From a virus: a stretch of DNA of 16,142 nucleotides. How positions within the stretch are numbered: position 1 is the stretch's first letter; every line of letters begins with the position of its first letter. Shown here piece by piece: positions 50-16,142 of the stretch. The stretch lies in the UHGV virus genome UHGV-0156413; one strand, given 5' to 3'. The translations under genes and the position numbers were made by a program. The notes below the pieces were generated by a model. It made no database searches. It was not told the origin of the DNA and saw only the letters and a list, made by a program, of their open reading frames with translations.

Positions 50-1063
50 TTACTCTACTGTGGACACTGTGTGGACACTCTCGGCCTCAGTACCACCTCT
101 TAGCGGATTAAGAGAAATGGCGTCCTGAAGGTACTCTGGCGCAAAATGAGCGTAAACCATAGTTTGCTCAATCCGCGTGTGACCTAGTATCCGTTGTAGC
201 GTGATAATACTTCCTCCATTAATCATGAAATGAGTGGCAAAGCTGTGCCTTAGTGCATGTGTGGCTTGCCCCATTGGCAAATCCGGTTTTATTGCTTTCA
301 TTGTTCGTCTGAAGCGAGGGTAATCAGCATCAGGGAATAAAAAACCTCGTTTGTTATCCGCGATCATTTTGGCAACAGCCTCTGAGATCGGGACGGTGCG
401 TGGTTTGTTTGTTTTCGTTTTAACAAACGTGACGCGGTTATGGATGATATTTTCTGCTTTCAAACGAGCTGCTTCTCCCCAACGTGCTCCAGTACTCAGG
501 CAAAGAATCGCAATCTTTTTGTTGTCGCCGTCAAGAGCAGCAAGCAGTAAGGCAATTTCTTCCTGCGTGAGATAGCCTGTGTCTGGTTTTTCCTCCTTAA
601 GCCTTTTTGTCCCTCTGATAGGGTGCTCACCAAAGAATAACTCCGCTTCAATCAGGGCTGTAAACATGCCGCTAATACATGTTAAATCACGATTGATACT
701 CGAAGGTTTAATACCCTGACTTCTTCGGGTGGCGCAGTACTGGCTGATAAGCGATTTCGTAATTTGAAATGCGCATGGGTCATTCGTTATTTTTGTGAAG
801 ATTTCAATTTTTCCAAGATTAGATTTCCCATGCTCTTCGTGTTTACCCTTTAAATCCCACCAGATCTGTGTCAGCTCCGACAGACGTCGCTTGTCTGTTG
901 GTTTTGATAGCCATTCTTTATTGTGGTGGTTGTACAACGTGTATTTCTCGAAAGCGACAGCTTCGCTTTTCTTATCAAACTTCCTACGGATGCGTTTTCC
1001 ATTACGTCCAGTAGGGCGGATGTCCACTTCATATCGACCATCATCGAGTTTTTTGATTGCCAT
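50..1063 (-). CDS. int: Tyrosine site-specific integrase (P2 Int-like)
   Basis: 337-aa ORF; C-terminal region HALRHSFATHFMINGG...LGHTRIEQTMVYAH fits the tyrosine-recombinase catalytic signature. Lies downstream of the repressor on the same strand, as in P2. No att core recognised in nt 1-49. Confidence 0.93.
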   Translation of the reverse strand: MAIKKLDDGRYEVDIRPTGRNGKRIRRKFDKKSEAVAFEKYTLYNHHNKEWLSKPTDKRRLSELTQIWWDLKGKHEEHGKSNLGKIEIFTKITNDPCAFQITKSLISQYCATRRSQGIKPSSINRDLTCISGMFTALIEAELFFGEHPIRGTKRLKEEKPDTGYLTQEEIALLLAALDGDNKKIAILCLSTGARWGEAARLKAENIIHNRVTFVKTKTNKPRTVPISEAVAKMIADNKRGFLFPDADYPRFRRTMKAIKPDLPMGQATHALRHSFATHFMINGGSIITLQRILGHTRIEQTMVYAHFAPEYLQDAISLNPLRGGTEAESVHTVSTVE

Positions 1064-1178: not shown

Positions 1179-1478
1179 TTAACCAGTCTTTTGACCGGAG
1201 TGGGGCGACGTTGTTTCGTTTTGCCCAAAGTGTGCGAGAGCGGGCGCAATTTGCCCGGACTCAGGAGCGATCTGATTGGTCATGAACCATAAAGTGTATT
1301 TGGTGAATTGTGGGGTCTGCAGGATGTTCATCATGACATCTGTTGGAGGTGTTGAACGACCACTTTCATAGTAACTCAGCGTGCCATACGGAACCCCTGT
1401 TAAATCAGCAAGTTGTTGTCTGCTCAAATACTCTGATTTTCGCATTAAGACTATCTTCTCGCTTATCGTGTTTGACAT
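1179..1478 (-). CDS. C: Immunity repressor (P2 C-like, helix-turn-helix)
   Basis: 99-aa ORF with N-terminal HTH-like segment (LSRQQLADLTGVPYGTLSYYESG); divergent from cox and upstream of int, the P2 arrangement. Length matches P2 C as I recall it. Confidence 0.88.
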   Translation of the reverse strand: MSNTISEKIVLMRKSEYLSRQQLADLTGVPYGTLSYYESGRSTPPTDVMMNILQTPQFTKYTLWFMTNQIAPESGQIAPALAHFGQNETTSPHSGQKTG

Positions 1479-2609: not shown

Positions 2610-2834
2610 ATGCATACAGTTTCTGAAAATCAGTGCGGTATATACGCATTACTGCTGCAACAGGCCAGAACCGAAGCACAGGCCGACGCTGCGACGCGCT
2701 TTTCTTCTCATCTTGACGCCATGATTCGCCACATCACAAAGGCGGAGTTATCCCGCGTGGAGATAGTCGAGCTGCTCAGTCAGGAGTCGGAAAAATTTCA
2801 CAATATCGGATTGTCTCGCGGGAAGGTGCTTTGA
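2610..2834 (+). CDS. Hypothetical early protein (P2 orf80 position)
   Basis: 74-aa ORF with GGAGA upstream of ATG; stop overlaps next start (ATGA), suggesting translational coupling. Confidence 0.6.
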
Positions 2835-3136
2835 TGTCCTGTTCTCATTCAGTTGTATTACTGAATAACGCCTTAAAAATCGCCGTTATGAAAAATGGCG
2901 ATTTGTCTCTTATTCAACTTTGTCTTGATAAAGAAAAACGCGACATAACTGAATCTGTTATCGCGATTTATCAGAATGAATTAAACCTCCTGTCTGATGT
3001 GGTCAATTTACTTGTTAAACGCGCTGTATTCCACAAGCAAATTTCATCCGTGGATGAGCTGACAAAATTAACGACAGAAATCGCCAGCTATTGCGCTGAT
3101 GAATTCAAGAAACTGAACGATAAAAGGAGCTGGTAA
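2831..3136 (+). CDS. Hypothetical early protein (P2 orf81 position)
   Basis: 101-aa ORF, start overlapping upstream stop, same strand and operon context. Confidence 0.6.
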
Positions 3137-3360
3137 TGCCGGACAACGTAGATTTTATTCAGGAACAACAGGCTGAATTACTGGAGCGCCAGATTAACGC
3201 GGCAAGGGTAAAACATTGCGGTGTTTCTTCGCTGGTTTGCGAAGAGTGTGATGCGCCAATACCTGCTGCCCGTCGTGCGGCTTATCCGTCAGCCACGCGT
3301 TGTGTTTCCTGTCAGTCAGTCTTTGAAGCAAAAAACAAACATTACCGGAGAACGGCATGA
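3136..3360 (+). CDS. DksA/TraR-type C4 zinc-finger protein (P2 orf82 position)
   Basis: 74-aa ORF with C-x2-C-x17-C-x2-C (CEEC...CVSC), typical of TraR/DksA-family zinc fingers in phage early operons. Confidence 0.7.
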   Translation: MPDNVDFIQEQQAELLERQINAARVKHCGVSSLVCEECDAPIPAARRAAYPSATRCVSCQSVFEAKNKHYRRTA

Positions 3361-3632
3361 GTATTCGTATTGAAATTGGCGAACGTTATGTCGTTACCAG
3401 TGACAGCTTTCAGTTTATTCTCCACGAGAAAAAGAGAGCGGAAAGCGGTAAAAACGCCGGTCAGGAATGGCTGTCGGTGGTTGGTTATTACCCGAAATTA
3501 AGCCAGCTCGTTTCCGGCCTGATGCATCACGATATTCTGACCGGAAGCGCAAAGTCTTTTGCTGATTTAAACGCGCAGGTTGAGCAACTCAGCAAGCGTT
3601 GTTCAGAGGTTTTTGGCTCATATGGCAGTTAA
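3357..3632 (+). CDS. Hypothetical early protein (P2 orf83 position)
   Basis: 91-aa ORF, start overlaps upstream stop; its 3' end overlaps the start of A. Confidence 0.6.
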   Translation: MSIRIEIGERYVVTSDSFQFILHEKKRAESGKNAGQEWLSVVGYYPKLSQLVSGLMHHDILTGSAKSFADLNAQVEQLSKRCSEVFGSYGS

Positions 3633-5898
3633 AGCCTCCGGGCGTTGTGTCCCTCCGTCAGCATTTGCCGCAGGCACCGGTAAGACGTTTACCGGTGCTT
3701 ATGCATGGAACGCGCCACGCGAGGCCGTCGGGCGCGAAAGACCCCTTACACGTGACGAGATGCGTCAGGTGCAAGGTGTTTTATCCACGATTAACCGCCT
3801 GCCTTACTTTTTGCGCTCGCTGTTTACTTCACGCTATGACTACATCCGGCGCAATAAAAGCCCGGTGCACGGGTTTTATTTCCTCACATCCACTTTTCAG
3901 CGTCGTTTATGGCCGCGCATTGAGCGTGTGAATCAGCGCCATGAAATGAACACCGACGCGTCGTTACTGTTTCTGGCAGAGCGTGACCACTATGCGCGCC
4001 TGCCTGGAATGAATGACAAGGAGCTGAAAAAGTTTGCTGCCCGTATCTCATCGCAGCTTTTCATGATGTATGAGGAACTCAGCGATGCCTGGGTGGATGC
4101 GCATGGCGAAAAAGAATCGCTGTTTACGGATGAGGCGCAGGCTCACCTGTATGGTCATGTTGCTGGCGCTGCACGTGCTTTCAATATTTCCCCTCTCTAC
4201 TGGAAAAAATACCGTAAAGGGCAGATGACCACGAGGCAGGCATATTCTGCCATTGCCCGTCTGTTTAACGATGAGTGGTGGACTCATCAGCTTAAAGGCC
4301 AGCGTATGCGCTGGCATGAGGCGTTACTGATTGCTGTCGGGGAGGTCAATAAAGACCGTTCTCCTTATGCCAGTAAACATGCCATTCGTGATGTGCGCGC
4401 GCGCCGCCAGGCAAATCTGGAATTTCTTAAATCGTGTGACCTTGAAAACAGGGAAACCGGCGAACGCATCGACCTTATCAGTAAGGTTATGGGCAGTATT
4501 TCTAATCCAGAAATTCGCCGGATGGAGCTGATGAACACCATTGCCGGTATTGAGCGTTACGCCGCCGCAGAGGGTGATGTGGGGATGTTTATCACGCTGA
4601 CCGCGCCGTCAAAGTATCACCCGACACGTCAGGTCGGAAAAGGCGAAAGTAAAGCCGTCCAGCTAAATCACGGCTGGAACGATGAGGCATTTAATCCAAA
4701 GGATGCGCAGCGTTATCTCTGCCGCATCTGGAGCCTGATGCGCACGGCATTCAAGGATAATGATTTACAGGTCTACGGTTTGCGTGTCGTCGAGCCACAC
4801 CACGACGGAACGCCGCACTGGCATATGATGCTTTTTTGTAATCCACGCCAGCGTAACCAGATTATTGAAATCATGCGTCGCTACGCGCTCAAAGAGGATG
4901 GCGACGAAAGAGGAGCTGCGCGAAACCGTTTTCAGGCAAAACATCTTAACCGGGGCGGTGCTGCGGGATATATCGCGAAATACATTTCAAAAAACATCGA
5001 CGGCTATGCACTGGATGGTCAGCTCGATAACGACACCGGCAGGCCGCTGAAAGACACTGCAGCGGCTGTTACCGCATGGGCGTCAACGTGGCGCATCCCG
5101 CAATTTAAAACGGTTGGCCTGCCGACAATGGGGGCTTACCGTGAACTACGCAAATTGCCTCGCGGCGTCAGCATTGCTGATGAGTTTGACGAACGCGTTG
5201 AGGCTGCACGTGCCGCCGCAGACAGTGGTGATTTTGCGTTGTATATCAGCGCACAGGGTGGGGCAAATGTTCCGCGTGATTGCCAGACTGTCAGAGTCGC
5301 CCGTAGCCCGTCGGATGACGTTAACGAGTACGAGGAAGAAGTCGAGAGAGTGGTCGGCATTTACGCGCCGCATCTCGGCGCGCGTCATATTCATATCACC
5401 AGAACGACGGACTGGCGCATTGTGCCGAAAGTTCCGGTCGTTGAGCCTTTGACTTTAAAAAGCGGCATCGCCGCGCCTCGGAGTCCTGTCAATAACTGTG
5501 GAAAGCTCACCGGTGGTGATACTTCGTTACCGGCTCCCACACCTTCTGAGCACGCCGCAGCAGTGCTTAATCTGGTTGATGACGGTGTTATCGAATGGAA
5601 TGACACGGAGGTCGTGAGGGCGCTCAGGGGGGCATTAAAACACGACCTGAGAACACCAAATCGTCAGCAAAGAAACGGAAGCCCGTTAAAACCACATGAA
5701 ATTGCACCATCGGCCAGACTGACCCGGTCGGAAAGAATGCAAATTACCCGTATCCGCGTTGACCTTGCTCAGAACGGTATCAGGCCGCAGCGATGGGAGC
5801 TTGAGGCGCTGGCGCGTGGCGCGACCGTAAATTATTACGGGAAATCTTTCAATTATCAGGTCGCTGATGAGTGGCCTGGATTTTTGTTACCCATTTGA
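3622..5898 (+). CDS. A: Rolling-circle replication initiator (P2 gpA-like HUH endonuclease)
   Basis: Start taken at ATG 3622 (MAVKASG...) rather than the upstream ORF-track start. Contains HUH-like motif PHWHMMLF and tyrosine motif GYIAKYISKNIDGY typical of Rep/gpA nickases. Confidence 0.9.
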   Translation: MAVKASGRCVPPSAFAAGTGKTFTGAYAWNAPREAVGRERPLTRDEMRQVQGVLSTINRLPYFLRSLFTSRYDYIRRNKSPVHGFYFLTSTFQRRLWPRIERVNQRHEMNTDASLLFLAERDHYARLPGMNDKELKKFAARISSQLFMMYEELSDAWVDAHGEKESLFTDEAQAHLYGHVAGAARAFNISPLYWKKYRKGQMTTRQAYSAIARLFNDEWWTHQLKGQRMRWHEALLIAVGEVNKDRSPYASKHAIRDVRARRQANLEFLKSCDLENRETGERIDLISKVMGSISNPEIRRMELMNTIAGIERYAAAEGDVGMFITLTAPSKYHPTRQVGKGESKAVQLNHGWNDEAFNPKDAQRYLCRIWSLMRTAFKDNDLQVYGLRVVEPHHDGTPHWHMMLFCNPRQRNQIIEIMRRYALKEDGDERGAARNRFQAKHLNRGGAAGYIAKYISKNIDGYALDGQLDNDTGRPLKDTAAAVTAWASTWRIPQFKTVGLPTMGAYRELRKLPRGVSIADEFDERVEAARAAADSGDFALYISAQGGANVPRDCQTVRVARSPSDDVNEYEEEVERVVGIYAPHLGARHIHITRTTDWRIVPKVPVVEPLTLKSGIAAPRSPVNNCGKLTGGDTSLPAPTPSEHAAAVLNLVDDGVIEWNDTEVVRALRGALKHDLRTPNRQQRNGSPLKPHEIAPSARLTRSERMQITRIRVDLAQNGIRPQRWELEALARGATVNYYGKSFNYQVADEWPGFLLPI

Positions 5899-6158
5899 GT
5901 GAAAATGCAGCGTGATTTTATATGCCTTTGAATGGATTATGCGAAGCGCCTCTAAGGCAGATGAGGAGCAATAGCATGCTGAAGTAGAAGGCTAAATTGT
6001 ATTGAATCGCTAGCATGTAATTTAAGGCAGCTATTTGATTCGAGTCATAAAAGAGCATCTATTTCGGCTAATAAAACCATTGCGAGTGACCTTTTGTCGA
6101 AGCATAATTCATCTCGAGCGAAGTCTTGCTAGTCTTTCATCGGAATGATGACAGGCGC

Positions 6159-6188
6159 AAAAAAACCACCCTGGCAGGTGGTTTTTTT
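6159..6188. terminator. Bidirectional rho-independent terminator
   Basis: A7-CCACC (6159-6170), loop CTGGCA, GGTGG-T7 (6177-6188): GC stem flanked by an A-run and a T-run, so a U-tract follows the hairpin in either orientation. Lies downstream of A and just 3' of the minus-strand small ORF. Confidence 0.6.
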
Positions 6189-6200
6189 GTTTGAAGCATA

Positions 6201-6314
6201 CTAAAGAATAATACTTACATGGATATTACTGACGTTTACTGACAAACCACTTGGACTACCATATGGATAGCCAAAGAGGGCCAGAACGAGAATGCAGTAA
6301 TAGCACTTCTTCAT
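6201..6314 (-). CDS. Putative small hydrophobic peptide (37 aa; not in the ORF track)
   Basis: Minus-strand ATG at 6314-6312 preceded by CAGGAGGAGAT; translation MKKCYYCILVLALFGYPYGSPSGLSVNVSNIHVSIIL then stop; terminator immediately 3'. No homology assessed. Confidence 0.3.
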   Translation of the reverse strand: MKKCYYCILVLALFGYPYGSPSGLSVNVSNIHVSIIL

Positions 6315-6884
6315 ATCTCCTCCTGTAAGCAGAGGGCAATTTCCGCCGATATATGCGCTTCTAAGGCGGAGTTAATATTTAGCGAAGTCTTGCCCTGAAA
6401 TAATGCTCTGTTTAAACGCAAAGTGATCTGGCATATCACCGAACAGAGAGCCTGAACAACACAACATATAGTATGTCGTTGTTTCTGGTTGCATTTTATG
6501 TTGTGTAATACTGGTTTTGCATCAAGGATGTTTGAGCTTTTTTTGATATAGCTCAAAGTAAAAAGCAGGGACTACGGATGATAAGGTATTGAAAGCAATG
6601 TAAATTTTTTAAAGTTATTGGTGGCTAAAAAATGCACGATTTCAATGTGGCGGACTTAAATAAGCAATTAAAAAAGTCATAAATATCACTAAAATCATGG
6701 TGTTACGTTTTTTGTGGGAGCTGCGGTGACGCTTAAGTTGATTTGTCATTAAATAAGCCGTGCATGCAACAAGTGAATGTTTTTGCATGCGTCGGGGATG
6801 CCCGTTCCCGCTGCTTGCGGTCAGAGCTGGTGCGGATCCATAGTATCTATGCAACTGCATTAAAACCGCCACATGAAGCGGGCG

Positions 6885-6903
6885 GGCGAGGCGGGGAAAG
6901 CAC
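6885..6903. other. Putative cos site (19-nt cohesive-end sequence of P2-type phages)
   Basis: GGCGAGGCGGGGAAAGCAC at 6885-6903 matches the P2 cohesive-end sequence as I recall it; sits between A and Q as expected for a circularly permuted prophage. Memory-based, not searched. Confidence 0.55.
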
Positions 6904-6939
6904 CGCGCGTAAGATAAACAGAAGAGCGAAGGATTATGG

Positions 6940-6968
6940 TTGAGTATTTGTGTTTTTGTACATATGAT
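6940..6968 (+). promoter_or_regulatory. Candidate sigma70 promoter for the cargo operon
   Basis: TTGAGT (6940-6945), 17-bp spacer, TATGAT (6963-6968); followed by inverted repeat GTGTTT...AAACAC (about 6975-6997) and a GGAG Shine-Dalgarno before ATG 7010. Confidence 0.3.
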
Positions 6969-7009
6969 AAAAAGGTGTTTACGCTTAAAAACACATCAAA
7001 GGAGATGAT

Positions 7010-8311
7010 ATGGAAAATATAAAGATTGATAAGTTTCTCACTATTCAAAAAGTTGATATTCCTCTTAAGAAAGTGAATATATTTATTGGGCCTCAGGCAC
7101 AGGGGAAAAGTGTCATTGCAAAGCTAATAAAATATTTTAAAGATTATCCTATGGATATACTACGAGCTTCAACAGAGGGTAAAACTAAAAGAGATATATT
7201 GAAGGAGCAAAAGAATAAGTTTAGTAAAATTTTCCCTCAGCAGTATTGGGCTGATGATGAGTTTTTTATTGAGTATAGTAATAAGCACTATTGGGTGCGG
7301 ATTACTAATCGAAAAAATAGCAAAGGGTCATTGAAAATAGCCCTTTCTGAGAATTTAACGAAGACGATTGCTAAACTTCGTTTGATTGTACGAAAGGATT
7401 TAGATGAAAATATTGAGAATTCACTTGCAGAAAGCGTTACGAGAAGGCGTAAACGCGGAATTGAACATGAATTGCGAGTATGTCTTTCTCTAGGATTGTT
7501 TTCAGAACCAGAAACAAAGCTTGAAAGTGTTTTTTATATCCCCGCAGGGCGCTCTTTTTTTGCTAATTTGCAAAAAAATGTGTTTTCATTTTTATCCAGT
7601 AGTATAGAAATTGACTACTTTTTGACAGAGTTTGGTTCTCTGTATGAACAAACAAAAAAATTATTTAACCAAGATTACATGATTAGGATGCTTAGGGGGG
7701 CTGTGCCTCAACATGTTAATAAACTTGTGGAGGAGTTGATTTGCGGAAAATATATAACAGAAAAGGGTGAGGATTTTATTCGTCATGCTGCTAAGAAGAC
7801 GAATCTTAACAACTCGAGCTCAGGGCAGCAAGAAGCGTTACCAATGGCTTTAATGTTATCCTCATGGCCGTATTTACAGTCTATGACTAGTAAGAGTTTT
7901 ATTATTGAGGAGCCGGAGGCTCATCTGTTTCCTTCTGCCCAAGCAAAAGTTGTATCTTTAATAGCCTCAGCGTATAACCAAGCAGAAAGCTATTGTAGCT
8001 ATACAATAACAACACATAGTCCATATATTCTAAGTGCCTTCAATAATTTGATTCAAGCAGGTAATGCATTGAAGTGTATTAAGGGCAAGAATAATACCGA
8101 TATCGAACGCTTATATAAGCTTGTTCCAGAGTCTCAAATTATTGATTTTGATGATGTGACAGCTTATATGGTTAATGCTGGGAAAGTGACGGAAATACTG
8201 GATTCCGAACTAAATATATTAGATGCGAATGAAATAGATAGGATTTCCTCTATTTTTTCAGAGACTTTTGATGCATTGATTGATATCGAATATTCGGCTA
8301 CTGTGAATTAG
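7010..8311 (+). CDS. ABC-type ATPase of the AAA_21/OLD-like family (candidate defence ATPase)
   Basis: 433 aa. Walker A GPQAQGKS (aa 27-34), signature-like SSGQQ (aa 269-273), Walker B/D-loop FIIEEPEAHLFP (aa 297-308), H-loop TTHSP (aa 334-338). AT-rich codon usage unlike the phage backbone. Confidence 0.85.
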   Translation: MENIKIDKFLTIQKVDIPLKKVNIFIGPQAQGKSVIAKLIKYFKDYPMDILRASTEGKTKRDILKEQKNKFSKIFPQQYWADDEFFIEYSNKHYWVRITNRKNSKGSLKIALSENLTKTIAKLRLIVRKDLDENIENSLAESVTRRRKRGIEHELRVCLSLGLFSEPETKLESVFYIPAGRSFFANLQKNVFSFLSSSIEIDYFLTEFGSLYEQTKKLFNQDYMIRMLRGAVPQHVNKLVEELICGKYITEKGEDFIRHAAKKTNLNNSSSGQQEALPMALMLSSWPYLQSMTSKSFIIEEPEAHLFPSAQAKVVSLIASAYNQAESYCSYTITTHSPYILSAFNNLIQAGNALKCIKGKNNTDIERLYKLVPESQIIDFDDVTAYMVNAGKVTEILDSELNILDANEIDRISSIFSETFDALIDIEYSATVN

Positions 8312-8319
8312 GTGATTGA

Positions 8320-8757
8320 ATGTGTAAAAATTGCAAAGGAAAAACAAAAAATAAAATCATTGTGCTATCTGATAAAGGAACGTCAACGCAATTGTCAGTC
8401 ACAAATGATAATGAGTTGGAAGTTGAGCATAAGTTAATAGATGGTTGCGCTATTGTTGTTGGAGAGCGGTGTGATCATTATTTGAAGATTTATAACAATC
8501 AGGATGTTTCACATCTTTTTGTTGAACTTAAAGGAAGTGATGTTGAAAAAGCTGTTAAACAGATAGTGACAACTTTAAAGTCAGGTGTGATTAATGTAGG
8601 TGCTAAAGAAAAAAAACATGGTGCTATTGTTAGCACTAGGAATCCGCTAAACTCACCAGAAACCAATAGGTTAAAGAAGAAAATTCTTTTGAGTGACGGA
8701 GTGAATTTGCATTTCTATAAAATGAAGGCGCAGCAAAAAATAACTTCTTTTACATGA
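8320..8757 (+). CDS. Small partner protein, possible PD-(D/E)xK-like nuclease or effector (hypothetical)
   Basis: 145 aa; starts 8 bp after the ATPase stop with AGGTGA upstream. N-terminal CxxC (C2, C5); candidate catalytic core D52 ... E69-L-K71 (ERCDH ... FVELKG). Assignment is tentative. Confidence 0.7.
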   Translation: MCKNCKGKTKNKIIVLSDKGTSTQLSVTNDNELEVEHKLIDGCAIVVGERCDHYLKIYNNQDVSHLFVELKGSDVEKAVKQIVTTLKSGVINVGAKEKKHGAIVSTRNPLNSPETNRLKKKILLSDGVNLHFYKMKAQQKITSFT

Positions 8758-8770
8758 AGTGTTCTCTTGT

Positions 8771-8794
8771 ACAGGCATGCATTTGCATGCCTGT
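8771..8794. terminator. Perfect palindrome between convergent cargo operon and Q (terminator or protein-binding site)
   Basis: ACAGGCATGCA tt TGCATGCCTGT (11-bp arms); a short T-run (ATCTTTTA) follows about 8 nt downstream on the plus strand. Confidence 0.35.
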
Positions 8795-8860
8795 CGTGTA
8801 ATCTTTTACACTATATTTGTGTTGGTTCTAATCTTGTTATGTGTTTGTTTCGGTGATGGG

Positions 8861-9880
8861 TCATAATGAATAAGTTCGAAAGCGAAATACATCTTCGCCA
8901 ACCCAACAGTTAATTTCTTTACATCGCTCTTGGAGGAACGTTAGCTCGTTGCGTACAAAGACTTGTGCTGCTTTTGTTACATCTCCAAATCCTCCTGTGT
9001 TGTTGGGCATCATTCCTATCATTTGGGGAGGCACGCGATGAGCACTCATTAGATCTTCAGCACTTGCTTTTTTGATATTAAAAAAATCGTCCTTCGTTGC
9101 CACTTCACTGAGCGGGATAATTTTAATGCCGTCGGCTTTCCCCTGCGGGGCATAGAGAAACAGATTTTTAAAGTTATTGCGGCCTTTCGACTTAACCATG
9201 TTTTCGCGAAGCATTTCGATATCGTTGCGATCCTGCACGGCATCAGTGACGTACATGATGTATCCGGCATGAGCGCCGTTTTCGTAATACTTGCGGCGGA
9301 ACAGCGTGGCCGACTCATTCAGCCAGGCAGAGTTAAGGGCGCTGAGATATTCGGGCAGGCCGTACAGCTCCTGATTAATATCCGGCTCCAGCAGGTGAAA
9401 CACGGAACCGGGCGCGAAGGCTGTCGGCTCGTTGAAGGACGGCACCCACCAGTAAACATCCTCTTCCACACCACGGCGGGTATATTTTGCCGGTGAGGTT
9501 TCCAGCCTGATAACTTTACCGGTGGTGCTGTAACGCTTTTCCAGAAACGCATTACCGAACACCAGAAAATCCAGCACAAAGCGGCTGAAATCCTGCTGGG
9601 AAAGCCACGGATGCGGGATAAATGTCGAGGCCAGAATATTGCGTTTGACGTAAATCGGCGAGCTGTGATGCACGGCAGCACGCAGGCTTTTTGCCAGACC
9701 GGTAAAGCTGACCGGCGGCTCATACCATCTGCCGTTACTGATGCACTCGACGTAATCCAGAATGTCACGGCGGTCGAGTACCGGCACCGGCTCACCAAAG
9801 GTGAATGCTTCCATTTTCGGGGCGCTGGCGGTGATTGTTTTTGCCGCAGGTCGCGGTGTTTTCCCTTTTTTCTTGCTCAT
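8861..9880 (-). CDS. Q: Portal protein (P2 gpQ-like)
   Basis: 339-aa ORF immediately downstream of and overlapping the large-terminase stop (ATGA); conserved P2 Q-P arrangement; size close to P2 Q as recalled. Confidence 0.9.
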   Translation of the reverse strand: MSKKKGKTPRPAAKTITASAPKMEAFTFGEPVPVLDRRDILDYVECISNGRWYEPPVSFTGLAKSLRAAVHHSSPIYVKRNILASTFIPHPWLSQQDFSRFVLDFLVFGNAFLEKRYSTTGKVIRLETSPAKYTRRGVEEDVYWWVPSFNEPTAFAPGSVFHLLEPDINQELYGLPEYLSALNSAWLNESATLFRRKYYENGAHAGYIMYVTDAVQDRNDIEMLRENMVKSKGRNNFKNLFLYAPQGKADGIKIIPLSEVATKDDFFNIKKASAEDLMSAHRVPPQMIGMMPNNTGGFGDVTKAAQVFVRNELTFLQERCKEINCWVGEDVFRFRTYSL

Positions 9881-11292
9881 CAGTAAAACTCCAGAATGGT
9901 GGATGTCAGCGGAGTGCTGATACCGGCGGTGAGTGGCTCATTTAACAGGGCGTGCATGGTTGCCCAGGCGAGGTCGGCGTGGCTGGCTTCCTCGCTGCGG
10001 CTGGCCTCATAGGTGGCGCTGCGTCCGCTGCTGGTCATGGTCTTGCGGATAGCCATGAACGAGCTGGTGATGTCGGTGGCGCTGACGTCATATTCCAGAC
10101 AGCCACGGCGGATGACGTCTTTGGCCTTGAGCACCATTGCGGTTTTCATTTCCGGCGTGTAGCGGATATCGCGCGCGGCGGGATAGAACGAGCGCACGAG
10201 CTGGAACACGCCGACACCGAGGCCGGTGGCATCAATACCGATGTATTCGACGTTGTATTTTTCGGTGAGTTTGCGGATGGACTCCGCCTGGGTGGCAAAG
10301 TCCATGCCTTTCCACTGGTGACGCTCAAGTATTCTGAATTTGCCACCGGCCACCACCGGCGGTGCCAGCACCACGCATCCGGCGCTGTCGCCACGGTGTG
10401 ACGGGTCGTAACCAATCCATACCGGGCGGGAGCCGAACGGATTTGCGGCAAACGGCGCGTAGTCTTCCCATTCTTCCAGCGTGTCGACCATGCAGCGTTG
10501 CAGCTCCTCGAACGGGAACACCGATGCCTTGTCGTCAACAAATTCACACATGAACAGGTTTTTAAAATCGTCGGCGCTGTTTTCGCGTTTGAGCTGCTCA
10601 ATGTCGAACAATGTGCAGCCGCCTTTCAGGGCGTCCTCAATGGTGACAATCTGCCGCCACTGGCCGTCCGCACAGAGAAGACCACCGGCAAGGGCGTTAT
10701 GACTGACGTCGATTTCCACACGTTCGGCGGCGCTGGCGCGTCCCCGGTTGAACAGTTCACCCGACCAGAACGGGTAGGCGTCGTGCGCCAGTGTGGACGG
10801 GGTGGAGAAATAGGTCGAGCGCAGGTGACTCTGTGAGGCCATACCTGATGCCACCTTACGCAGTACCTGAAAATTCGGGATCCAGAAAATCTCGTCGACG
10901 TACAGGTCGCCGTTATGGCTCTGTGCGGTGTTGGAGTTGGTGCCGAGAAAAATCAGTTTTGCGCCGTTATTGCCCAGGACAATCGGGTCACCGGTCAGGT
11001 CAACGTCAACCAGCCGGGCAAAGGCGATGATGTATTCGCGGAACACATACGCCTGCGTTTTACTGGCCGACAGAAAAATCTGGTTATGACCGGTTTTCAG
11101 GGCGCGCAGCAGCGCCTCGCGGGAAAAATAAAACGTCGCGCCAATCTGGCGGGATTTCAGGATATCGCGGATGCGGTGCTCAAGCCCGGCGCGATACCAG
11201 TGCAACTGATATTCGAAAGACTGCTCAAAGAAAATCTGCTCCAGCTTTTCGATGGCCTCGTCACTGAAAAAATTCTTTTTCGGTTTGCCGCA
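9880..11292 (-). pseudogene. P: Large terminase subunit (P2 gpP-like), 5'-truncated
   Basis: Reading frame open from 11292 down to 9880 (about 470 codons) with no in-frame ATG at its 5' end; the frame runs straight into the opposite-strand O remnant. Contains deviant Walker-A-like KSRQIGAT. P2 P is about 590 aa as recalled. Confidence 0.7.
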
Positions 11293-12017
11293 TTAACCTG
11301 GAACATCTGCGCGGCATCCTGCCTGACGGTATTTTTAAGCGTTATGGCGATGTGGTCGAACTGAAGGCCGAAAAGATTGACGATGATTCGGCGCTGAAAG
11401 GCAAATGGGCGCTGTTTGCGAAAATCACCCCGACCGATGACCTTATCGCGATGAACAAGGCCGCGCAGAAGGTCTATACCTCAATGGAAATTCAGCCGAA
11501 CTTTGCCAATACCGGCAAATGTTATCTGGTGGGTCTGGCCGTCACCGATGACCCGGCAAGCCTCGGCACGGAATACCTGGAATTCTGCCGCACGGCAAAA
11601 CACAACCCCCTGAACCGCTTCAAATTAAGCCCTGAAAACCTGATTTCAGTGGCAACGCCTGTTGAGCTGGAATTTGAAGACCTGCCTGAAACCGTGTTCA
11701 CCGCCCTGACCGAAAAGGTGAAATCCATTTTTGGCCGCAAACAGGCCAGCGATGACGCCCGTCTGAATGACGTGCATGAAGCGGTGACCGCTGTCGCTGA
11801 ACATGTGCAGGAAAAACTGAGCGCCACTGAGCAGCGCCTCGCTGAGATGGAAACTGCCTTTTCCGCTCTTAAGCAGGAGGTGACTGACAGGGCGGATGAA
11901 ACCAGCCAGGCATTCACCCGCCTGAAAAACAGTCTCGACAGCACCGAAAGTCTGACCCAGCAGCGCCGCAGCAAGGCCACCGGTGGTAGCGGTGACGCCC
12001 TGATGACGAACTGCTGA
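11268..12017 (+). pseudogene. O: Capsid scaffold protein (P2 gpO-like), 5'-truncated
   Basis: Frame open from 11268 (just after an in-frame TGA at 11265-11267) with no ATG before GTG 11352; N-terminal residues of the P2 O protein (about 284 aa as recalled) are absent. Confidence 0.7.
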
Positions 12018-12075
12018 CCGGCGTCAGCCAGTCCGGGCAAACCTTCACGATTAACCCTTAATTTCAGGAAAAACT

Positions 12076-13149
12076 ATGCGCCAGGAAACCCGCTTTAAAT
12101 TTAATGCCTACCTGTCCCGTGTTGCCGAACTGAACGGCATCGACGCCGGTGATGTGTCGAAAAAATTCACCGTTGAACCGTCGGTCACCCAGACCCTGAT
12201 GAACACCATGCAGGAGTCCTCTGATTTTCTGACCCGCATCAACATTGTGCCGGTCAGCGAAATGAAAGGGGAAAAAATTGGTATTGGTGTCACCGGCTCC
12301 ATCGCCAGCACCACCGACACCGCCGGTGGCACCGAGCGTCAGCCGAAGGACTTCTCGAAGCTGGCGTCAAACAAGTACGAATGCGACCAGATTAACTTCG
12401 ATTTTTATATCCGCTACAAAACTCTTGACCTGTGGGCGCGTTATCAGGATTTCCAGCTCCGTGTCCGTAACGCCATTATCAAACGCCAGTCCCTTGATTT
12501 AATCATGGCCGGTTTTAACGGCGTGAGGCGTGCCGAAACCTCTGACCGCAGCAGCAATCCGATGCTGCAGGATGTGGCGGTCGGCTGGCTGCAGAAATAC
12601 CGCAATGAAGCACCGGCGCGCGTGATGAGCAAGGTCACTGACGAGGAAGGTCACACGACCTCTGAGGTCATCCGCGTGGGTAAGGGCGGTGATTATGCCA
12701 GCCTTGATGCACTGGTGATGGATGCGACCAACAACCTGATTGAGCCGTGGTATCAGGAAGACCCTGACCTTGTGGTGATTGTGGGGCGTCAGCTACTGGC
12801 GGACAAGTATTTTCCCATCGTCAACAAGGAGCAGGACAACAGCGAAATGCTGGCCGCTGACGTCATCATCAGCCAGAAACGCATCGGCAACCTGCCAGCG
12901 GTACGCGTCCCGTACTTCCCGGCGGATGCGATGCTCATCACGAAGCTGGAAAACCTGTCCATCTACTACATGGATGACAGCCATCGCCGCGTGATTGAGG
13001 AAAACCCGAAACTCGACCGTGTGGAGAACTACGAGTCAATGAACATTGATTACGTGGTGGAGGACTACGCCGCCGGTTGTCTGGTGGAAAAAATTAAGGT
13101 CGGTGATTTCTCCACACCGGCTAAAGCGACCGCAGAGCCGGGAGCGTAA
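12076..13149 (+). CDS. N: Major capsid protein (P2 gpN-like)
   Basis: 357-aa ORF in the conserved O-N-M-L order; length equals P2 N as recalled; AGGA Shine-Dalgarno upstream. Confidence 0.93.
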   Translation: MRQETRFKFNAYLSRVAELNGIDAGDVSKKFTVEPSVTQTLMNTMQESSDFLTRINIVPVSEMKGEKIGIGVTGSIASTTDTAGGTERQPKDFSKLASNKYECDQINFDFYIRYKTLDLWARYQDFQLRVRNAIIKRQSLDLIMAGFNGVRRAETSDRSSNPMLQDVAVGWLQKYRNEAPARVMSKVTDEEGHTTSEVIRVGKGGDYASLDALVMDATNNLIEPWYQEDPDLVVIVGRQLLADKYFPIVNKEQDNSEMLAADVIISQKRIGNLPAVRVPYFPADAMLITKLENLSIYYMDDSHRRVIEENPKLDRVENYESMNIDYVVEDYAAGCLVEKIKVGDFSTPAKATAEPGA

Positions 13150-13152
13150 CCG

Positions 13153-13896
13153 ATGACGAGTCCCGCACAGCGCCACATGATGCGGGTCTCGGCAGCGATG
13201 ACCGCTCAGCGGGACGCCGCCCCGCTGCGACATGCAACTGTCTATGAGCAGATGCTGGTTAAGCTGGCCGCAGACCAGCGCACACTGAAAGCGATTTATT
13301 CAAAAGAGCTGAAGGCCGCAAAAAAACGCGAACTGCTGCCGTTCTGGTTGCCGTGGGTGAACGGCGTGCTGGAGCAGGGCAAAGGTGCACAGGATGACAT
13401 TCTGATGACGGTCATGCTGTGGCGTCTGGATACCGGCGATATTGCCGGTGCGCTGGAGATTGCCCGTTATGCCCTGAAGTACGGTCTGACCATGCCGGGT
13501 AAACACCGCCGTACCCCGCCGTACATGTTCACCGAGGAGGTAGCGCTTGCGGCCATGCGCGCTCACGCTGCCGGTGAGTCTGTGGATACCCGCCTGCTGA
13601 CGGACACCCTTGAACTGACCGCCACGGCTGACATGCCTGATGAAGTGCGCGCAAAGCTGCACAAAATCACCGGTCTGTTTCTGCGTGACGCCGGTGATGC
13701 CGCCGGTGCGCTGGCGCACCTGCAACGTGCGACACAGCTCGACTGTCAGGCAGGCGTCAAAAAAGAGATTGAACGACTGGAGCGGGAGCTGAAACCGAAG
13801 CCGGAGCCGCAGCCCAAAGCGGCCACCCGCGCCCCGCGTAAGACACGGAGCGTGACACCGGCAAAACGTGGACGCCCGAAAAAGAAAGCCAGTTAA
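13153..13896 (+). CDS. M: Small terminase / endonuclease subunit (P2 gpM-like)
   Basis: 247-aa ORF starting 4 bp after N; basic proline/lysine-rich C-terminal tail; position and size match P2 M. Confidence 0.88.
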   Translation: MTSPAQRHMMRVSAAMTAQRDAAPLRHATVYEQMLVKLAADQRTLKAIYSKELKAAKKRELLPFWLPWVNGVLEQGKGAQDDILMTVMLWRLDTGDIAGALEIARYALKYGLTMPGKHRRTPPYMFTEEVALAAMRAHAAGESVDTRLLTDTLELTATADMPDEVRAKLHKITGLFLRDAGDAAGALAHLQRATQLDCQAGVKKEIERLERELKPKPEPQPKAATRAPRKTRSVTPAKRGRPKKKAS

Positions 13897-13995
13897 CAAC
13901 CGAATGCGCCCCGCGCCAGGGCGGCACGCCGGTCAGTGAGGGTGAATCACCTGACACTGCACCGGCGTCCACCGCCCGACTTTTCAGAGGTAGTC

Positions 13996-14505
13996 ATGAT
14001 GACGCTGATTATTCCGCGAAAGGAGGCTCCCGTGTCCGGTGAGGGTACGGTGGTCATCCCGCAACCGGCAGGCGACGAGCCGGTGATTAAAAACACGTTC
14101 TTTTTTCCCGATATCGACCCGAAGCGCGTCCGGGAACGTATGCGCCTTGAGCAGACCGTCGCCCCCGCCCGTCTGCGTGAGGCCATCAAGTCAGGCATGG
14201 CGGAGACGAATGCGGAGCTGTACGAGTACCGCGAACAGAAAATTGCTGCCGGTTTTACGCGTCTGGCGGACGTCCCGGCGGACGACATCGACGGTGAAAG
14301 CATCAAAGTTTTTTACTACGAGCGCGCCGTGTGTGCGATGGCGACCGCATCGCTTTATGAGCGTTATCGCGGCGTGGATGCCAGTGCCAAGGGCGACAAG
14401 AAGGCCGACAGCATTGACAGCACCATTGATGAACTGTGGCGGGATATGCGCTGGGCGGTGGCACGTATCCAGGACAAGCCGCGCTGCATCGTGAGTCAAA
14501 TCTGA
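13996..14505 (+). CDS. L: Head completion/stabilisation protein (P2 gpL-like)
   Basis: Start taken at ATG 13996 (MMTLIIPRKEAP...) with GAGG upstream rather than the longer ORF-track start; 169 aa; about 99 bp gap after M as in P2. Confidence 0.88.
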   Translation: MMTLIIPRKEAPVSGEGTVVIPQPAGDEPVIKNTFFFPDIDPKRVRERMRLEQTVAPARLREAIKSGMAETNAELYEYREQKIAAGFTRLADVPADDIDGESIKVFYYERAVCAMATASLYERYRGVDASAKGDKKADSIDSTIDELWRDMRWAVARIQDKPRCIVSQI

Positions 14506-14708
14506 TGAAGACCTTTGCGCTACAGGGCGACACGCTCGACGCCATTTGTGTCCGGTATTACGGGCGCACTGAGGGCGTGGTTGAGACCGTGCTCGCCGCA
14601 AATCCGGGACTGGCTGAACTGGGTGCGATGCTGCCGCACGGCACCGCCGTCGAACTGCCCGATGTTCAGACCGCGCCCGTGGCTGAAACTGTCAATCTGT
14701 GGGAGTAA
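14505..14708 (+). CDS. X: Tail protein X (P2 gpX-like)
   Basis: 67-aa product from ATG 14505 (MKTFALQGDTLDAICVRYYG...), start overlapping the L stop; size matches P2 X. Confidence 0.8.
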   Translation: MKTFALQGDTLDAICVRYYGRTEGVVETVLAANPGLAELGAMLPHGTAVELPDVQTAPVAETVNLWE

Positions 14709-14711
14709 CGC

Positions 14712-15026
14712 ATGACAGCAGAAGAAAAAAGCGTTCTGTCGCTTTTCATGATTGGAGTGCTGATTGTTGTCGGCAAGGTGCTTGCCGGTGGTGAAACCAT
14801 CACCCCGCGTCTGTTTATCGGGCGCATGTTGCTCGGTGGTTTTGTCTCGATGGTTGCCGGTGTTGTTCTGGTGCAGTTTCCTGACCTGTCACTGCCTGCG
14901 GTGTGCGGCATCGGCTCCATGCTGGGTACCACTGAGCGCAGTTTTGACGGGCGAATGACGGTCACGTTAACCGGCCAGCACAACGACACCGGCCAGCCAC
15001 TTTCGTTAACCATCCCTGTGAGTTGA
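14712..15026 (+). pseudogene. Y: Holin-like ORF (P2 gpY-like N-terminus) with an unrelated hydrophilic C-terminus; probable deletion fusion
   Basis: First about 72 aa contain two clear hydrophobic transmembrane-like segments; after ...GIGSMLG the sequence becomes hydrophilic and the ORF ends 5 bp before J. Confidence 0.55.
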
Positions 15027-15030
15027 AACC

Positions 15031-15939: not shown

Positions 15940-16142
15940 TTCGCGACTGCTGCCGACCGGCTCATCACCGCTTGAGGTCGCCGCCGCAAAAGCCTGTGCG
16001 GAAATTGAAAAAACGCCGGTCAGTATTCGTGAGCTGTGGAACCCGGACACCTGTCCGGCAAATCTGCTGCCGTGGCTGGCGTGGGCGTTTTCGGTCGACA
16101 GGTGGGATGAAAAGTGGCCGGAAGCGACAAAACGCGCCGTTA
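15932..16142 (+). CDS. I: Baseplate/tail protein I (P2 gpI-like), 5' part only (runs off the window)
   Basis: ATG at 15932 overlaps the J stop; open frame to the window end (MSDSRLLPTGSSPLEVAAAKACAEIEK...). Confidence 0.75.
   Translation, partial: MSDSRLLPTGSSPLEVAAAKACAEIEKTPVSIRELWNPDTCPANLLPWLAWAFSVDRWDEKWPEATKRAV

What the first reader, a model, noticed from the sequence alone, without database searches (positions are those of the whole stretch)
5899..8860. AT-rich accessory island spanning the putative cos site; cargo sits on the Q side of cos
By eye the region between the A stop and the Q stop is far more AT-rich (roughly one third GC) than the flanking phage genes (above one half GC), consistent with horizontally acquired cargo. 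The 19-mer GGCGAGGCGGGGAAAGCAC (6885-6903) matches the P2 cohesive end as I recall it. The cargo operon therefore lies between cos and Q, while the A-to-cos segment has only small elements and nothing resembling P2 tin or old. In the linear virion genome the cargo would be at the extreme left end next to cos.
Basis: partly seen in the sequence, partly recalled or inferred. Interest (0 to 1): 0.5.

Follow-up and report, generated by a model that had tools for sequence, protein, structure and literature searches.

The report
Defence cargo beside P2 prophage cos
This is the well-known variable "cargo" region of a P2-like prophage, split in two by the phage's DNA-packaging (cos) site, and its payload is a catalogued but untested two-gene ATPase-plus-nuclease-like pair that most likely protects the host against other phages.

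Summary
Observation confirmed. Window 5899-8860 is 36.9% GC, against 53% for gene A and 57% for the late genes. The 19-mer at 6885-6903 is identical to the annotated cohesive ends of phage P2.

The "island" is really two independent AT-rich segments separated by a conserved, 60% GC cos core:
- **A side (5899-6884):** no long gene, only a bidirectional terminator and a conserved 37-aa ORF.
- **Q side (6910-8860):** a two-gene operon. It encodes a 433-aa ABC/SMC-type ATPase whose fold is closest to Septu/retron PtuA, and a 145-aa protein with a conserved D...ExK motif and a restriction-endonuclease-like fold.

The pair is conserved as a unit from enterobacteria to Pseudomonas and cyanobacteria. 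It is System #81 (45 occurrences) in the Rousset et al. 2022 catalogue of the P2 gpA-gpQ hotspot. I found no record that it was tested.

Cargo between cos and Q is a known layout (phiCTX ctx). In my survey it occurs in 8% of E. coli-type relatives and 44% of P2-like prophages from other species, carrying Lamassu, Olokun, Avs5 and others.

One caveat: this copy has a 660-bp deletion in the terminase/scaffold genes, so it probably makes no virions. Ordinary, already-described locus; modest interest.

The parts
5899..6884 (.). A-side variable segment (the P2 'tin-old' position) in a minimal form: 986 bp, GC 0.41, no long ORF
   Evidence: GC. 97.6-99% identical in L011 and in many complete E. coli genomes, where nothing is annotated. 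No Tin, Old or Orf91 homologue. No Rfam family above threshold.
6157..6190 (.). Bidirectional intrinsic terminator (A7-stem-T7)
   Evidence: Folds at -19 kcal/mol on both strands, z -3.2 and -3.7. Lies directly downstream of the 37-aa ORF on the - strand, and 260 bp downstream of A on the + strand.
6201..6314 (-). 37-aa hydrophobic ORF (MKKCYYCILVLALFGYPYGSPSGLSVNVSNIHVSIIL) with an AGGAGG Shine-Dalgarno sequence; function unknown
   Evidence: Intact in 7 related loci in 3 variants. Window vs L012: 9 differences per 114 nt in the ORF against 115 per 770 nt in the segment. Annotated as a hypothetical protein in Salmonella phage MET_P1_103_31. No Pfam or PHROG hit.
6849..6909 (.). Conserved cos core: 36 bp on the A side, the 19-nt cohesive end, and 6 bp on the Q side
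   Evidence: Majority-base frequency is >=0.9 from about -36 to +6 around the 19-mer across 74 species-representative P2-like prophages, and collapses beyond that. Matches the size of the published 55-bp P2/P4 core (cited in PMC5694545 and PMC9594776). Alignment A2.
6885..6903 (+). 19-nt cohesive-end sequence (cos cleavage product)
   Evidence: Identical to annotated P2 cosL/cosR. Deposited phage genome ends coincide with window 6884 and 6903.
6940..6968 (+). Candidate sigma-70 promoter of the cargo operon (TTGAGT-17-TATGAT), 37 bp right of the cohesive end
   Evidence: Consensus scan, 9/12 matches. The scan as a whole is not enriched over shuffles, so this is inference from position only. The layout is analogous to the annotated ctx promoter in phiCTX.
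7010..8311 (+). Cargo gene A: 433-aa ABC/SMC-type ATPase (Pfam AAA_15/AAA_21)
   Evidence: Pfam AAA_15 4e-20. PADLOC PDC-M29A 2e-31, AriA 3e-25, with PtuA and GajA weaker. Walker A at residue 27, signature SSGQQ at 270, Walker B at 297, H-loop at 335, all intact. AF2 pLDDT 86; best PDB folds are PtuA of Septu and of retrons Eco7/Ec78/Ec83, then Rad50.
8320..8757 (+). Cargo gene B: 145-aa partner, putative PD-(D/E)xK nuclease; AGGTGA Shine-Dalgarno inside the 8-nt gap after A
8771..8811 (.). Terminator-like hairpins between cargo gene B and the Q stop
   Evidence: 10-bp GC-rich stem at 8771-8794 plus a second hairpin with a U-run. -23.5 kcal/mol, z -5.2 on the + strand and -5.8 on the - strand.
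8861..9059 (-). Diverged 3' end of portal gene Q (last ~66 codons, GC 0.43) that travels with the cargo
   Evidence: Homology to cargo-less phages resumes at 9060. This allele is 100% identical only in L004 and L001, which carry the same cargo, and at most about 78% identical elsewhere. It lacks the DTDND tail of P2 gpQ.
8861..9880 (-). Portal gene Q (right border of the hotspot)
   Evidence: 339-aa ORF. 91-99% identical to P2-like Q proteins.
3580..5898 (+). Replication gene A (left border of the hotspot)
   Evidence: 772-aa ORF. Annotated 'replication endonuclease' in the E24377A homologue.

Best explanation
The region is the accessory-gene hotspot of a P2-like (Peduoviridae) prophage, lying between replication gene A and portal gene Q. 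The phage's cos packaging site sits inside it.

The conserved cos core needs about 36 bp on the A side of the 19-nt cohesive end but only 6 bp on the Q side. Foreign DNA can therefore sit immediately to the right of the nick. Here that slot holds a self-contained, AT-rich operon that reads away from cos and converges on Q. It has a candidate promoter, a 433-aa ABC/SMC-type ATPase, a 145-aa PD-(D/E)xK-like protein, and a terminator-like hairpin.

The cassette was most likely imported by homologous recombination between the cos core and the interior of Q, because it brought its own version of the last ~66 codons of Q.

The cargo most likely works as a Septu/PARIS-style anti-phage system expressed from the lysogen. 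The ATPase would act as sensor and scaffold, holding or activating the small nuclease, which then cuts nucleic acid when an infecting phage is detected.

Shown: composition, cos identity, boundaries, alternative cargo at the site, conserved pairing of A and B, intact ATPase motifs, and fold similarities. Inferred: promoter use, nuclease activity, A-B interaction, and the defence phenotype.
For: **Locus.**
- GC and GC3 contrast.
- Exact P2 cos, with phage genome ends at 6884 and 6903.
- Homology to all P2-likes stops at 6909 and resumes at 9060. L011 is an empty site and L004 has the same cargo with a different A side.
- The cos core is conserved from -36 to +6 only.
- The Q-side slot is occupied in 6/74 close relatives and 32/73 species representatives. 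Cargo there is AT-rich, and in 28/38 loci every cargo ORF is convergent with Q.
- Q-side cargo elsewhere includes Lamassu, Olokun, Avs5, a PD-T4-2/NsnA-like protein, and PDC-M03/M18/S02.
- phiCTX has the same layout: cosL, promoter, ctx, terminators, Q.
- The hotspot is published (PMC9122126). This cargo is its System #81, with 45 occurrences.

**Cargo.**
- A has intact Walker A, signature, Walker B and H-loop motifs.
- A's closest solved folds are PtuA of Septu and of the retron effector complexes.
- B has an invariant D...ExK motif and restriction-endonuclease-like fold hits.
- A homologues at 42-46% identity in P. aeruginosa and Nostocales are followed by B homologues (BLASTP 8e-21 and 6e-16).
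- In Enterobacter, Kosakonia and Serratia the pair sits in chromosomal islands next to toxin-antitoxin, T6SS-effector and IS genes.
- Both proteins hit the two components of the PADLOC candidate PDC-M29.
Against: - No experimental evidence for defence was found. The pair is absent from the table of tested systems in PMC9122126, and 'PDC-M29' occurs in no searchable paper.
- The promoter call is a 9/12 consensus match in a scan that is not enriched over shuffles.
- The hairpin after B lacks a canonical adjacent U-tract.
- This prophage copy is packaging-defective, so cos function cannot be assumed here.
- The survey loci are not phylogenetically independent.
Confidence: 0.72

Rival explanations
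1. The two-gene cargo is a toxin-antitoxin or addiction module that stabilises the prophage or island, not an anti-phage system. B would be a toxic nuclease kept in check by the ATPase.
For: Pfam describes AAA_21 as 'putative AbiEii toxin, Type IV TA system'. In other genera the pair lies next to HicB, SymE and HigB toxin-antitoxin genes. The pair persists in a degraded prophage (E24377A) and in this packaging-defective one.
Against: The slot is dominated by recognised defence systems in related prophages. The ATPase is structurally closest to the PtuA defence ATPases. TA and abortive-infection functions are also not mutually exclusive.
Confidence: 0.15
2. The AT-rich stretch is decaying junk in a defective prophage. 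The ORFs are remnants without function, and the cos sequence is a relic.
For: The prophage has a 660-bp deletion in P/O. Its closest complete-genome relative (E24377A) is further degraded, with an IS insertion. The A-side segment has no long ORF.
Against: Both cargo ORFs are full-length with intact catalytic motifs. They are 99% identical in 10 of 5426 complete E. coli genomes, and they also occur in L004, which has intact P and O. The A+B pairing is conserved across phyla. The cos core is identical to functional P2 cos.
Confidence: 0.05
3. The cargo serves the phage's own life cycle, for example a packaging or replication accessory placed next to cos, rather than lysogenic conversion.
For: It sits immediately next to cos. 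The ATPase is of the SMC/Rad50 type, and the partner looks like a nuclease. Both could in principle act on DNA ends.
Against: It is absent from over 90% of closely related P2-like phages, which have a 167-bp spacer instead. The same pair occurs in non-phage chromosomal contexts. Its composition is foreign. No sequenced phage isolate carries it.
Confidence: 0.04

Closest known systems
P2 gpA-gpQ 'cos-proximal' defence hotspot (Rousset et al. 2022, PMC9122126; earlier the tin-old / TO region of P2)
   Same: Same position between A and Q, same AT-rich and highly variable content, and same class of cargo. This exact protein pair is listed there as System #81, 'AAA_15/AAA_21', with 45 occurrences.
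   Different: In P2 the cargo (orf91, tin, old) is on the A side of cos. Here the A side is minimal and the cargo is on the Q side. In the passages I read, the published analysis treats A-Q as one locus and does not separate the two sides.
phiCTX ctx moron (Pseudomonas P2-like phage, NC_003278) and phiRSY1 ORF1-4
   Same: Identical layout: cosL, own promoter, cargo on the strand convergent with Q, terminator(s), Q. The cosL-Q position has been called a hotspot for foreign genes in P2-like phages (PMC5694545).
   Different: That cargo is a pore-forming cytotoxin (phiCTX) or Vgr-like and other genes (phiRSY1), not an ATPase/nuclease pair. The hosts are different genera.
Septu (PtuA ATPase + PtuB HNH nuclease), including the PtuAB effectors of type I-A retrons
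   Same: Two-gene operon of an ABC/SMC-like ATPase followed by a small nuclease-like partner. PtuA chains are the best structural matches for cargo A (Foldseek E 1e-9 to 1e-8, TM 0.40-0.49). Weak PtuA HMM hits.
   Different: 11-15% identity. phmmer against PDB sequences finds no PtuA. The partner has a D...ExK restriction-endonuclease-like core, not an HNH domain.
PARIS (AriA ATPase + AriB DUF4435 TOPRIM nuclease)
   Same: ABC ATPase plus nuclease effector carried in P4/P2 hotspots. AriA HMM hit at 3e-25.
   Different: B has no DUF4435/TOPRIM match, and the AriA match is partial (residues 54-341).
PADLOC candidate system PDC-M29 (A+B)
   Same: Both components hit: A at 2.3e-31 and B at 2.4e-4. 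Same order and sizes.
   Different: The matches are distant (A in 3 stretches, B at 19 bits). It is a computational candidate for which I found no publication or test.
P2 Old (OLD-family ATPase-TOPRIM nuclease)
   Same: Shares the ABC-ATPase signature/Walker B region (tblastn E 4e-5; PDB 6p74 OLD E 0.006). Old is the classic cargo of the same hotspot.
   Different: Cargo A has no TOPRIM domain. It is a two-protein system, and it lies on the other side of cos.

Membership tests
P2-type cos site | 19-nt 5' cohesive-end sequence GGCGAGGCGGGGAAAGCAC | tested here: met
   Exact, unique match at 6885-6903. Identical to annotated P2 cosL/cosR.
P2-type cos site | Conserved ~55-bp core around the cohesive end, shared by P2-family phages | tested here: met
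   Window 6849-6909 matches the core that is conserved across 153 loci. The 55-bp figure comes from citations of Ziermann & Calendar 1990 in PMC5694545 and PMC9594776.
P2-type cos site | Located between replication gene A and portal gene Q in the prophage map | tested here: met
   A stop at 5898, cos at 6885-6903, Q stop at 8861.
P2-type cos site | Cleaved and packaged by P2 terminase | not testable with these tools
   Only indirect evidence: deposited linear phage genomes end at the homologous positions. This copy lacks an intact P gene.
P2 gpA-gpQ defence hotspot | Variable gene content between conserved A and Q among related prophages | tested here: met
   Different cargo or an empty site in L004-L163.
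P2 gpA-gpQ defence hotspot | Cargo arrangement recorded in the published catalogue | tested here: met
   Table S5A rows and Table S5B System #81 contain these protein sequences.
P2 gpA-gpQ defence hotspot | Cargo confers phage resistance | not testable with these tools
   Not in the paper's table of tested systems. No experimental report found.
Septu (PtuAB) | PtuA-type ABC ATPase | tested here: inconclusive
   Best PDB folds are PtuA chains, and the PtuA HMMs hit at 5e-11 or weaker. There is no sequence-level PDB match.
Septu (PtuAB) | PtuB HNH nuclease partner | tested here: not met
   B has no HNH or PtuB hit in Pfam or PADLOC. Its motif and fold are PD-(D/E)xK-like.
PARIS (AriAB) | AriB DUF4435/TOPRIM effector | tested here: not met
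   B has no DUF4435 or AriB hit.
PADLOC PDC-M29 candidate | Adjacent genes matching both the PDC-M29A and PDC-M29B profiles | tested here: met
   A at 2.3e-31 and B at 2.4e-4, with the genes 8 nt apart. The B match is weak.
PD-(D/E)xK nuclease superfamily (protein B) | Catalytic D...(D/E)xK motif on the central beta-strands | tested here: met
   D52 at the start of strand 53-59 and E69-L-K71 at the end of strand 62-70, invariant in 15 sequences.
PD-(D/E)xK nuclease superfamily (protein B) | Restriction-endonuclease-like alpha/beta fold | tested here: inconclusive
PD-(D/E)xK nuclease superfamily (protein B) | Metal-dependent nuclease activity | not testable with these tools
   Needs biochemistry.
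P2 tin / old cargo | Homologues of Tin or of Old (ATPase + TOPRIM) | tested here: not met
   tblastn finds no Tin match with E below 2. Old matches only the ATPase region of cargo A, at 4e-5.

The most novel reading that the evidence does not exclude
The A+B pair is a distinct, widespread and experimentally uncharacterised Septu-like defence family in which the HNH effector is replaced by a minimal (~140-aa) PD-(D/E)xK nuclease. The B family has 2317 representative clusters and is always found as a stand-alone protein of ~140 aa.

Separately, the P2 'hotspot' is really two slots on either side of an asymmetric cos core, with the right edge of the core 6 bp from the nick. The slots appear to share one size budget: the A side has a median of 1341 bp when the Q side is loaded, against 2727 bp when it is empty.
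Probability: 0.5. Interest if true: 0.5.

Novelty: already known. Interest (0 to 1): 0.3.

Why it matters
It shows that a tool-less read of raw sequence correctly located a phage cos site and a lysogenic-conversion cassette.

Biologically it adds little to the published picture of the P2 hotspot. It offers three small points:
1. In P2-like phages the cargo can abut cos within 6 bp on the portal side. This is common outside E. coli, so pipelines that pool everything between gpA and gpQ merge two independently exchanging slots.
2. The cassette carries its own 3' end of the portal gene, which marks where the recombination happens.
3. The catalogued but untested ATPase + PD-(D/E)xK pair is a reasonable candidate for defence-system testing, with clear residues to mutate.

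Tried and rejected
- **Rfam, 5700-9000, permissive E-value:** only sub-threshold RNAI and Phe-leader hits on the terminator. No known RNA family.
- **Direct or inverted repeats flanking the cargo:** only short, low-identity chance pairs. No sign of a transposon or integrase-type insertion.
- **Tin, Old and Orf91 of P2 against the window:** nothing on the A side.
- **Other small ORFs on the A side (81, 76 and 46 aa):** no Pfam or PHROG hits, and non-ATG starts for two of them. Not treated as genes.
- **Sequence search of A and B against PDB chains:** only a faint OLD hit for A (E 0.006) and nothing meaningful for B.
- **tblastn of A against 50,697 phage records:** two unannotated faecal contigs at 26-34% identity. 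No isolated phage carries the cargo.
- **Literature search for 'PDC-M29':** no paper. My recollection that the PDC candidates came from PMC10250203 was not borne out.
- **Odegrip et al. 2006 (PMC1367236):** not held.
- **Salmonella phage MET_P1_103_31 (L168):** it shares the A-side segment, but I found no cos 19-mer (up to 3 mismatches) in the fetched stretch. It could not serve as an isolated-phage example.
- **Promoter scan:** 10 sites found against 9.2 expected, so promoter assignments rest on position only.
Full report
**1. What the window is**

The ORF map and the annotated E. coli E24377A homologue show a P2-like prophage. The E24377A region is 99.5% identical over 5899-8860. The gene order is:
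- integrase 50-1063 (-)
- repressor 1179-1478 (-)
- cox and early genes
- replication gene A, 3580-5898 (+)
- the region in question
- portal Q, 8861-9880 (-)
- terminase P, from 9880 (-)
- O, N, M, L... (+)

**2. Checking the observation**

*Composition.*

| Region | GC |
|---|---|
| 5899-8860 (the finding) | 0.369 |
| 5899-6884 (A stop to cos) | 0.406 |
| 6904-8860 (cos to Q stop) | 0.347 |
| gene A | 0.532 |
| Q | 0.505 |
| 9881-16142 | 0.573 |

The lowest-GC window of that length in the whole 16 kb starts at 5951. Third-position GC is 0.31 and 0.27 in the two cargo genes, against 0.54-0.72 in A, Q, P and N.

*The cos site.* The 19-mer GGCGAGGCGGGGAAAGCAC is unique at 6885-6903. It is identical to the cosL and cosR features annotated in P2 NC_001895. 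Several deposited linear genomes of P2-like phages end exactly at the homologue of window 6884 or 6903.

**3. Anatomy and boundaries**

I aligned the window against P2 and seven related loci. I also made a cos-anchored conservation profile over 153 loci.

The profile shows a conserved core running from about 36 bp left of the cohesive end to only 6 bp right of it (window ~6849-6909). This is the size of the published 55-bp P2/P4 core (cited in PMC5694545 and PMC9594776). Among E. coli relatives, weaker conservation extends left to about 6735-6775. The core is 60% GC, so the "island" is two AT-rich segments either side of it.

blastn against related loci gives these relationships:
- Homology to every P2-like phage stops at window 6909.
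- With cargo-less phages, homology resumes only at 9060, inside Q.
- L011 shares the whole A side (97.6% over 3501-6909) but has the ordinary 167-bp cos-Q spacer.
- L004 shares the cargo (97.8% over 6773-11288) but has a different, 1527-bp A side.

The two sides therefore assort independently around the cos core.

The last ~66 codons of Q (8861-9059, GC 0.43) form a diverged allele. It is found at 100% identity only with this cargo and is at most about 78% identical elsewhere. It lacks the DTDND tail of P2 gpQ. No flanking repeats mark the cargo.

The simplest reading is cassette exchange by homologous recombination between the cos core and Q.

**4. The A side (5899-6884)**

This segment has no long ORF and no Tin, Old or Orf91 homologue. 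It has no Rfam family above threshold. It contains two recognisable elements:
- A strong bidirectional terminator at 6157-6190.
- Directly upstream of it on the - strand, a 37-aa hydrophobic ORF (6201-6314) with an AGGAGG ribosome-binding site.

The ORF is intact in seven loci and is about twice as conserved as its surroundings. One phage record annotates it as a hypothetical protein. Its function is unknown.

**5. The Q side (6910-8860)**

The layout, left to right:
- A promoter-like site (TTGAGT-17-TATGAT, 6940-6968) lies 37 bp from the cohesive end. It is weak evidence.
- Gene A (7010-8311) and gene B (8320-8757) are 8 nt apart, with an AGGTGA Shine-Dalgarno sequence in the gap.
- A GC-rich hairpin (8771-8794) precedes the Q stop.

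*Protein A* is an AAA_15/AAA_21 ABC-type ATPase with Walker A, signature, Walker B and H-loop motifs intact. Its AlphaFold model (pLDDT 86) is closest to PtuA of Septu and to the PtuAB effectors of retrons Eco7, Ec78 and Ec83, then to Rad50. At the sequence level no solved structure is close.

**6. A and B are a unit**

- A profile search for B finds 2317 representative clusters, 964 of them at E <= 1e-10. All are stand-alone proteins of about 135-150 aa.
- A homologues at 46% identity (P. aeruginosa) and 42% identity (Nostocales) are each followed by a B homologue (BLASTP 8e-21 and 6e-16).
- In Enterobacter hormaechei, Kosakonia sacchari and Serratia marcescens the pair sits in chromosomal islands, not in a P2 prophage. 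Neighbours include HicB, SymE, a T6SS Hcp-effector, IS elements and RhuM.
- PADLOC's best hits are the two components of the candidate system PDC-M29 (A 2.3e-31, B 2.4e-4), with AriA, PD-T4-4_A, NsnB, GajA and PtuA behind.

The pair is thus an autonomous mobile two-gene cassette of the "ABC ATPase + nuclease" type.

**7. Is cargo on the Q side unusual?**

I fetched 160 loci encoding Q relatives and located cos, the Q stop and the A stop in each.

| Sample | Q side loaded | Empty-site spacer |
|---|---|---|
| Closest relatives (IMG/VR, largely E. coli type) | 6/74 (8%) carry >1 kb | ~156-170 bp, as in P2 |
| One genome per species (other Enterobacterales) | 32/73 (44%) carry >300 bp, up to 3962 bp | |

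In complete E. coli genomes, 1508 of the 1575 genomes with a Q gene contain at least one "empty" junction.

Q-side cargo is AT-rich (GC 0.32-0.50, against 0.52-0.60 in Q/P). In 28 of 38 loci every cargo ORF is convergent with Q. It includes recognised defence systems:
- Lamassu LmuA/LmuB (L114)
- Olokun OloA/OloB (L153)
- Avs5 (L089)
- an NsnA/PD-T4-2-like protein (L082)
- another ABC ATPase pair (L005)
- PDC-M03, PDC-M18 and PDC-S02 candidates

When the Q side is loaded the A side is shorter: median 1341 bp against 2727 bp (Mann-Whitney p = 1e-6, not corrected for relatedness). The window fits this pattern, with 986 bp and 1957 bp.

**8. Comparison with the literature**

- The gpA-gpQ interval is the published P2 defence hotspot "adjacent to the cos site" (PMC9122126; also PMC9519451, and PMC13586616).
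- That catalogue lists this very pair as System #81, "AAA_15/AAA_21", with 45 occurrences among 18,150 loci.
- The sequences do not occur in its table of tested systems.
- Cargo between cosL and Q is the annotated layout of phiCTX: cosL 1-21, ctx promoter, ctx 362-1222, terminators, Q 1417-2469.
- For phiRSY1 the same position has been described as a suggested hotspot in P2-like genomes (PMC5694545).

The arrangement is therefore known. What I did not see stated is the two-slot view, the +6 boundary, and the apparent size trade-off.

**9. Mechanism**

*Locus level, well supported.* This is a moron-type cassette with its own expression signals. It sits where neither the cos core nor the flanking operons are disturbed, and it is exchanged by recombination between the cos core and Q.

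*Cargo level, inferred (about 0.6).* It is a Septu/PARIS-like defence system in which the ATPase senses infection and controls a PD-(D/E)xK nuclease effector.

It is not a member of Septu, because it has no HNH partner. It is not a member of PARIS, because it has no DUF4435/TOPRIM partner.

Rivals are a TA/addiction module (0.15), non-functional remnant (0.05), and a phage life-cycle accessory (0.04).

**10. Caveat on this copy**

Compared with every related locus, the window lacks 660 bp at about 11285-11288, between short GGTT(T)GC repeats. The deletion removes the N-terminal ~150 codons of P, the P/O divergent promoter region, and ~85 codons of O. The prophage is therefore probably unable to package DNA. 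L004 carries the same cargo with P (600 aa) and O (306 aa) intact.

**11. Verdict**

The feature is an instance of an already-described hotspot carrying an already-catalogued but untested candidate defence pair. Interest is modest.

Noticed in passing
window 11250-11320 (junction at ~11285-11288): A 660-bp deletion relative to all compared P2-like loci, between short GGTT(T)GC repeats. It fuses a truncated terminase gene P (441 aa left of ~600) head-to-head with a truncated scaffold gene O (221 of ~306 aa) and removes the late divergent promoter region. The prophage is probably packaging-defective.
   Followed up: yes
window 6201-6314 (- strand), with terminator 6157-6190: A conserved 37-aa hydrophobic ORF with a strong AGGAGG Shine-Dalgarno sequence, immediately followed by a bidirectional terminator. 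It is about twice as conserved as its surroundings and has no family match. It could be a small membrane protein or toxin.
   Followed up: partly
window 8861-9059 (3' end of Q): The last ~66 codons of the portal gene are a low-GC, diverged allele found only together with this cargo. Other Q-side cargoes (L005/L006) carry their own diverged Q 3' ends. This suggests the recombination junction lies inside Q and that the portal C-terminus tolerates replacement.
   Followed up: partly
loci L004-L163 (survey), window 5899-8860: The A-side segment is shorter when the Q side of cos is loaded (median 1341 vs 2727 bp, n=147). This hints at a shared size budget for the two slots. It is not corrected for phylogeny.
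   Followed up: partly
window 6866-6881 (- strand) and 6762-6791: The conserved cos core contains a GC-rich hairpin followed by a T-run (CCGCTTCATGTGGCGG TTTTAATGCA) next to the nick. Repeated TGCAT/GCATGC motifs lie further left. These are possible terminase-recognition or terminator elements. The hairpin is not more stable than shuffles (z -0.85).
   Followed up: partly
L164-L166 (P. aeruginosa), 2653-9299: The Pseudomonas homologue of the A+B pair sits between a HigB/HTH toxin-antitoxin pair and genes typical of a Pf-like filamentous prophage (DUF5447, Phage_Coat_B).
   Followed up: no
L168 (Salmonella phage MET_P1_103_31), 3340-3634: This deposited 'complete' P2-like genome shares the window's A-side segment and has two ORFs before Q. 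No cos 19-mer (up to 3 mismatches) was found in the fetched stretch.
   Followed up: no
protein B, residues 2, 5, 43, 51 (window 8320-8757): Cysteines C5, C43 and C51 are invariant, and C2 is conserved in close homologues. They sit next to the putative catalytic D52, so a structural or regulatory metal site is possible.
   Followed up: no
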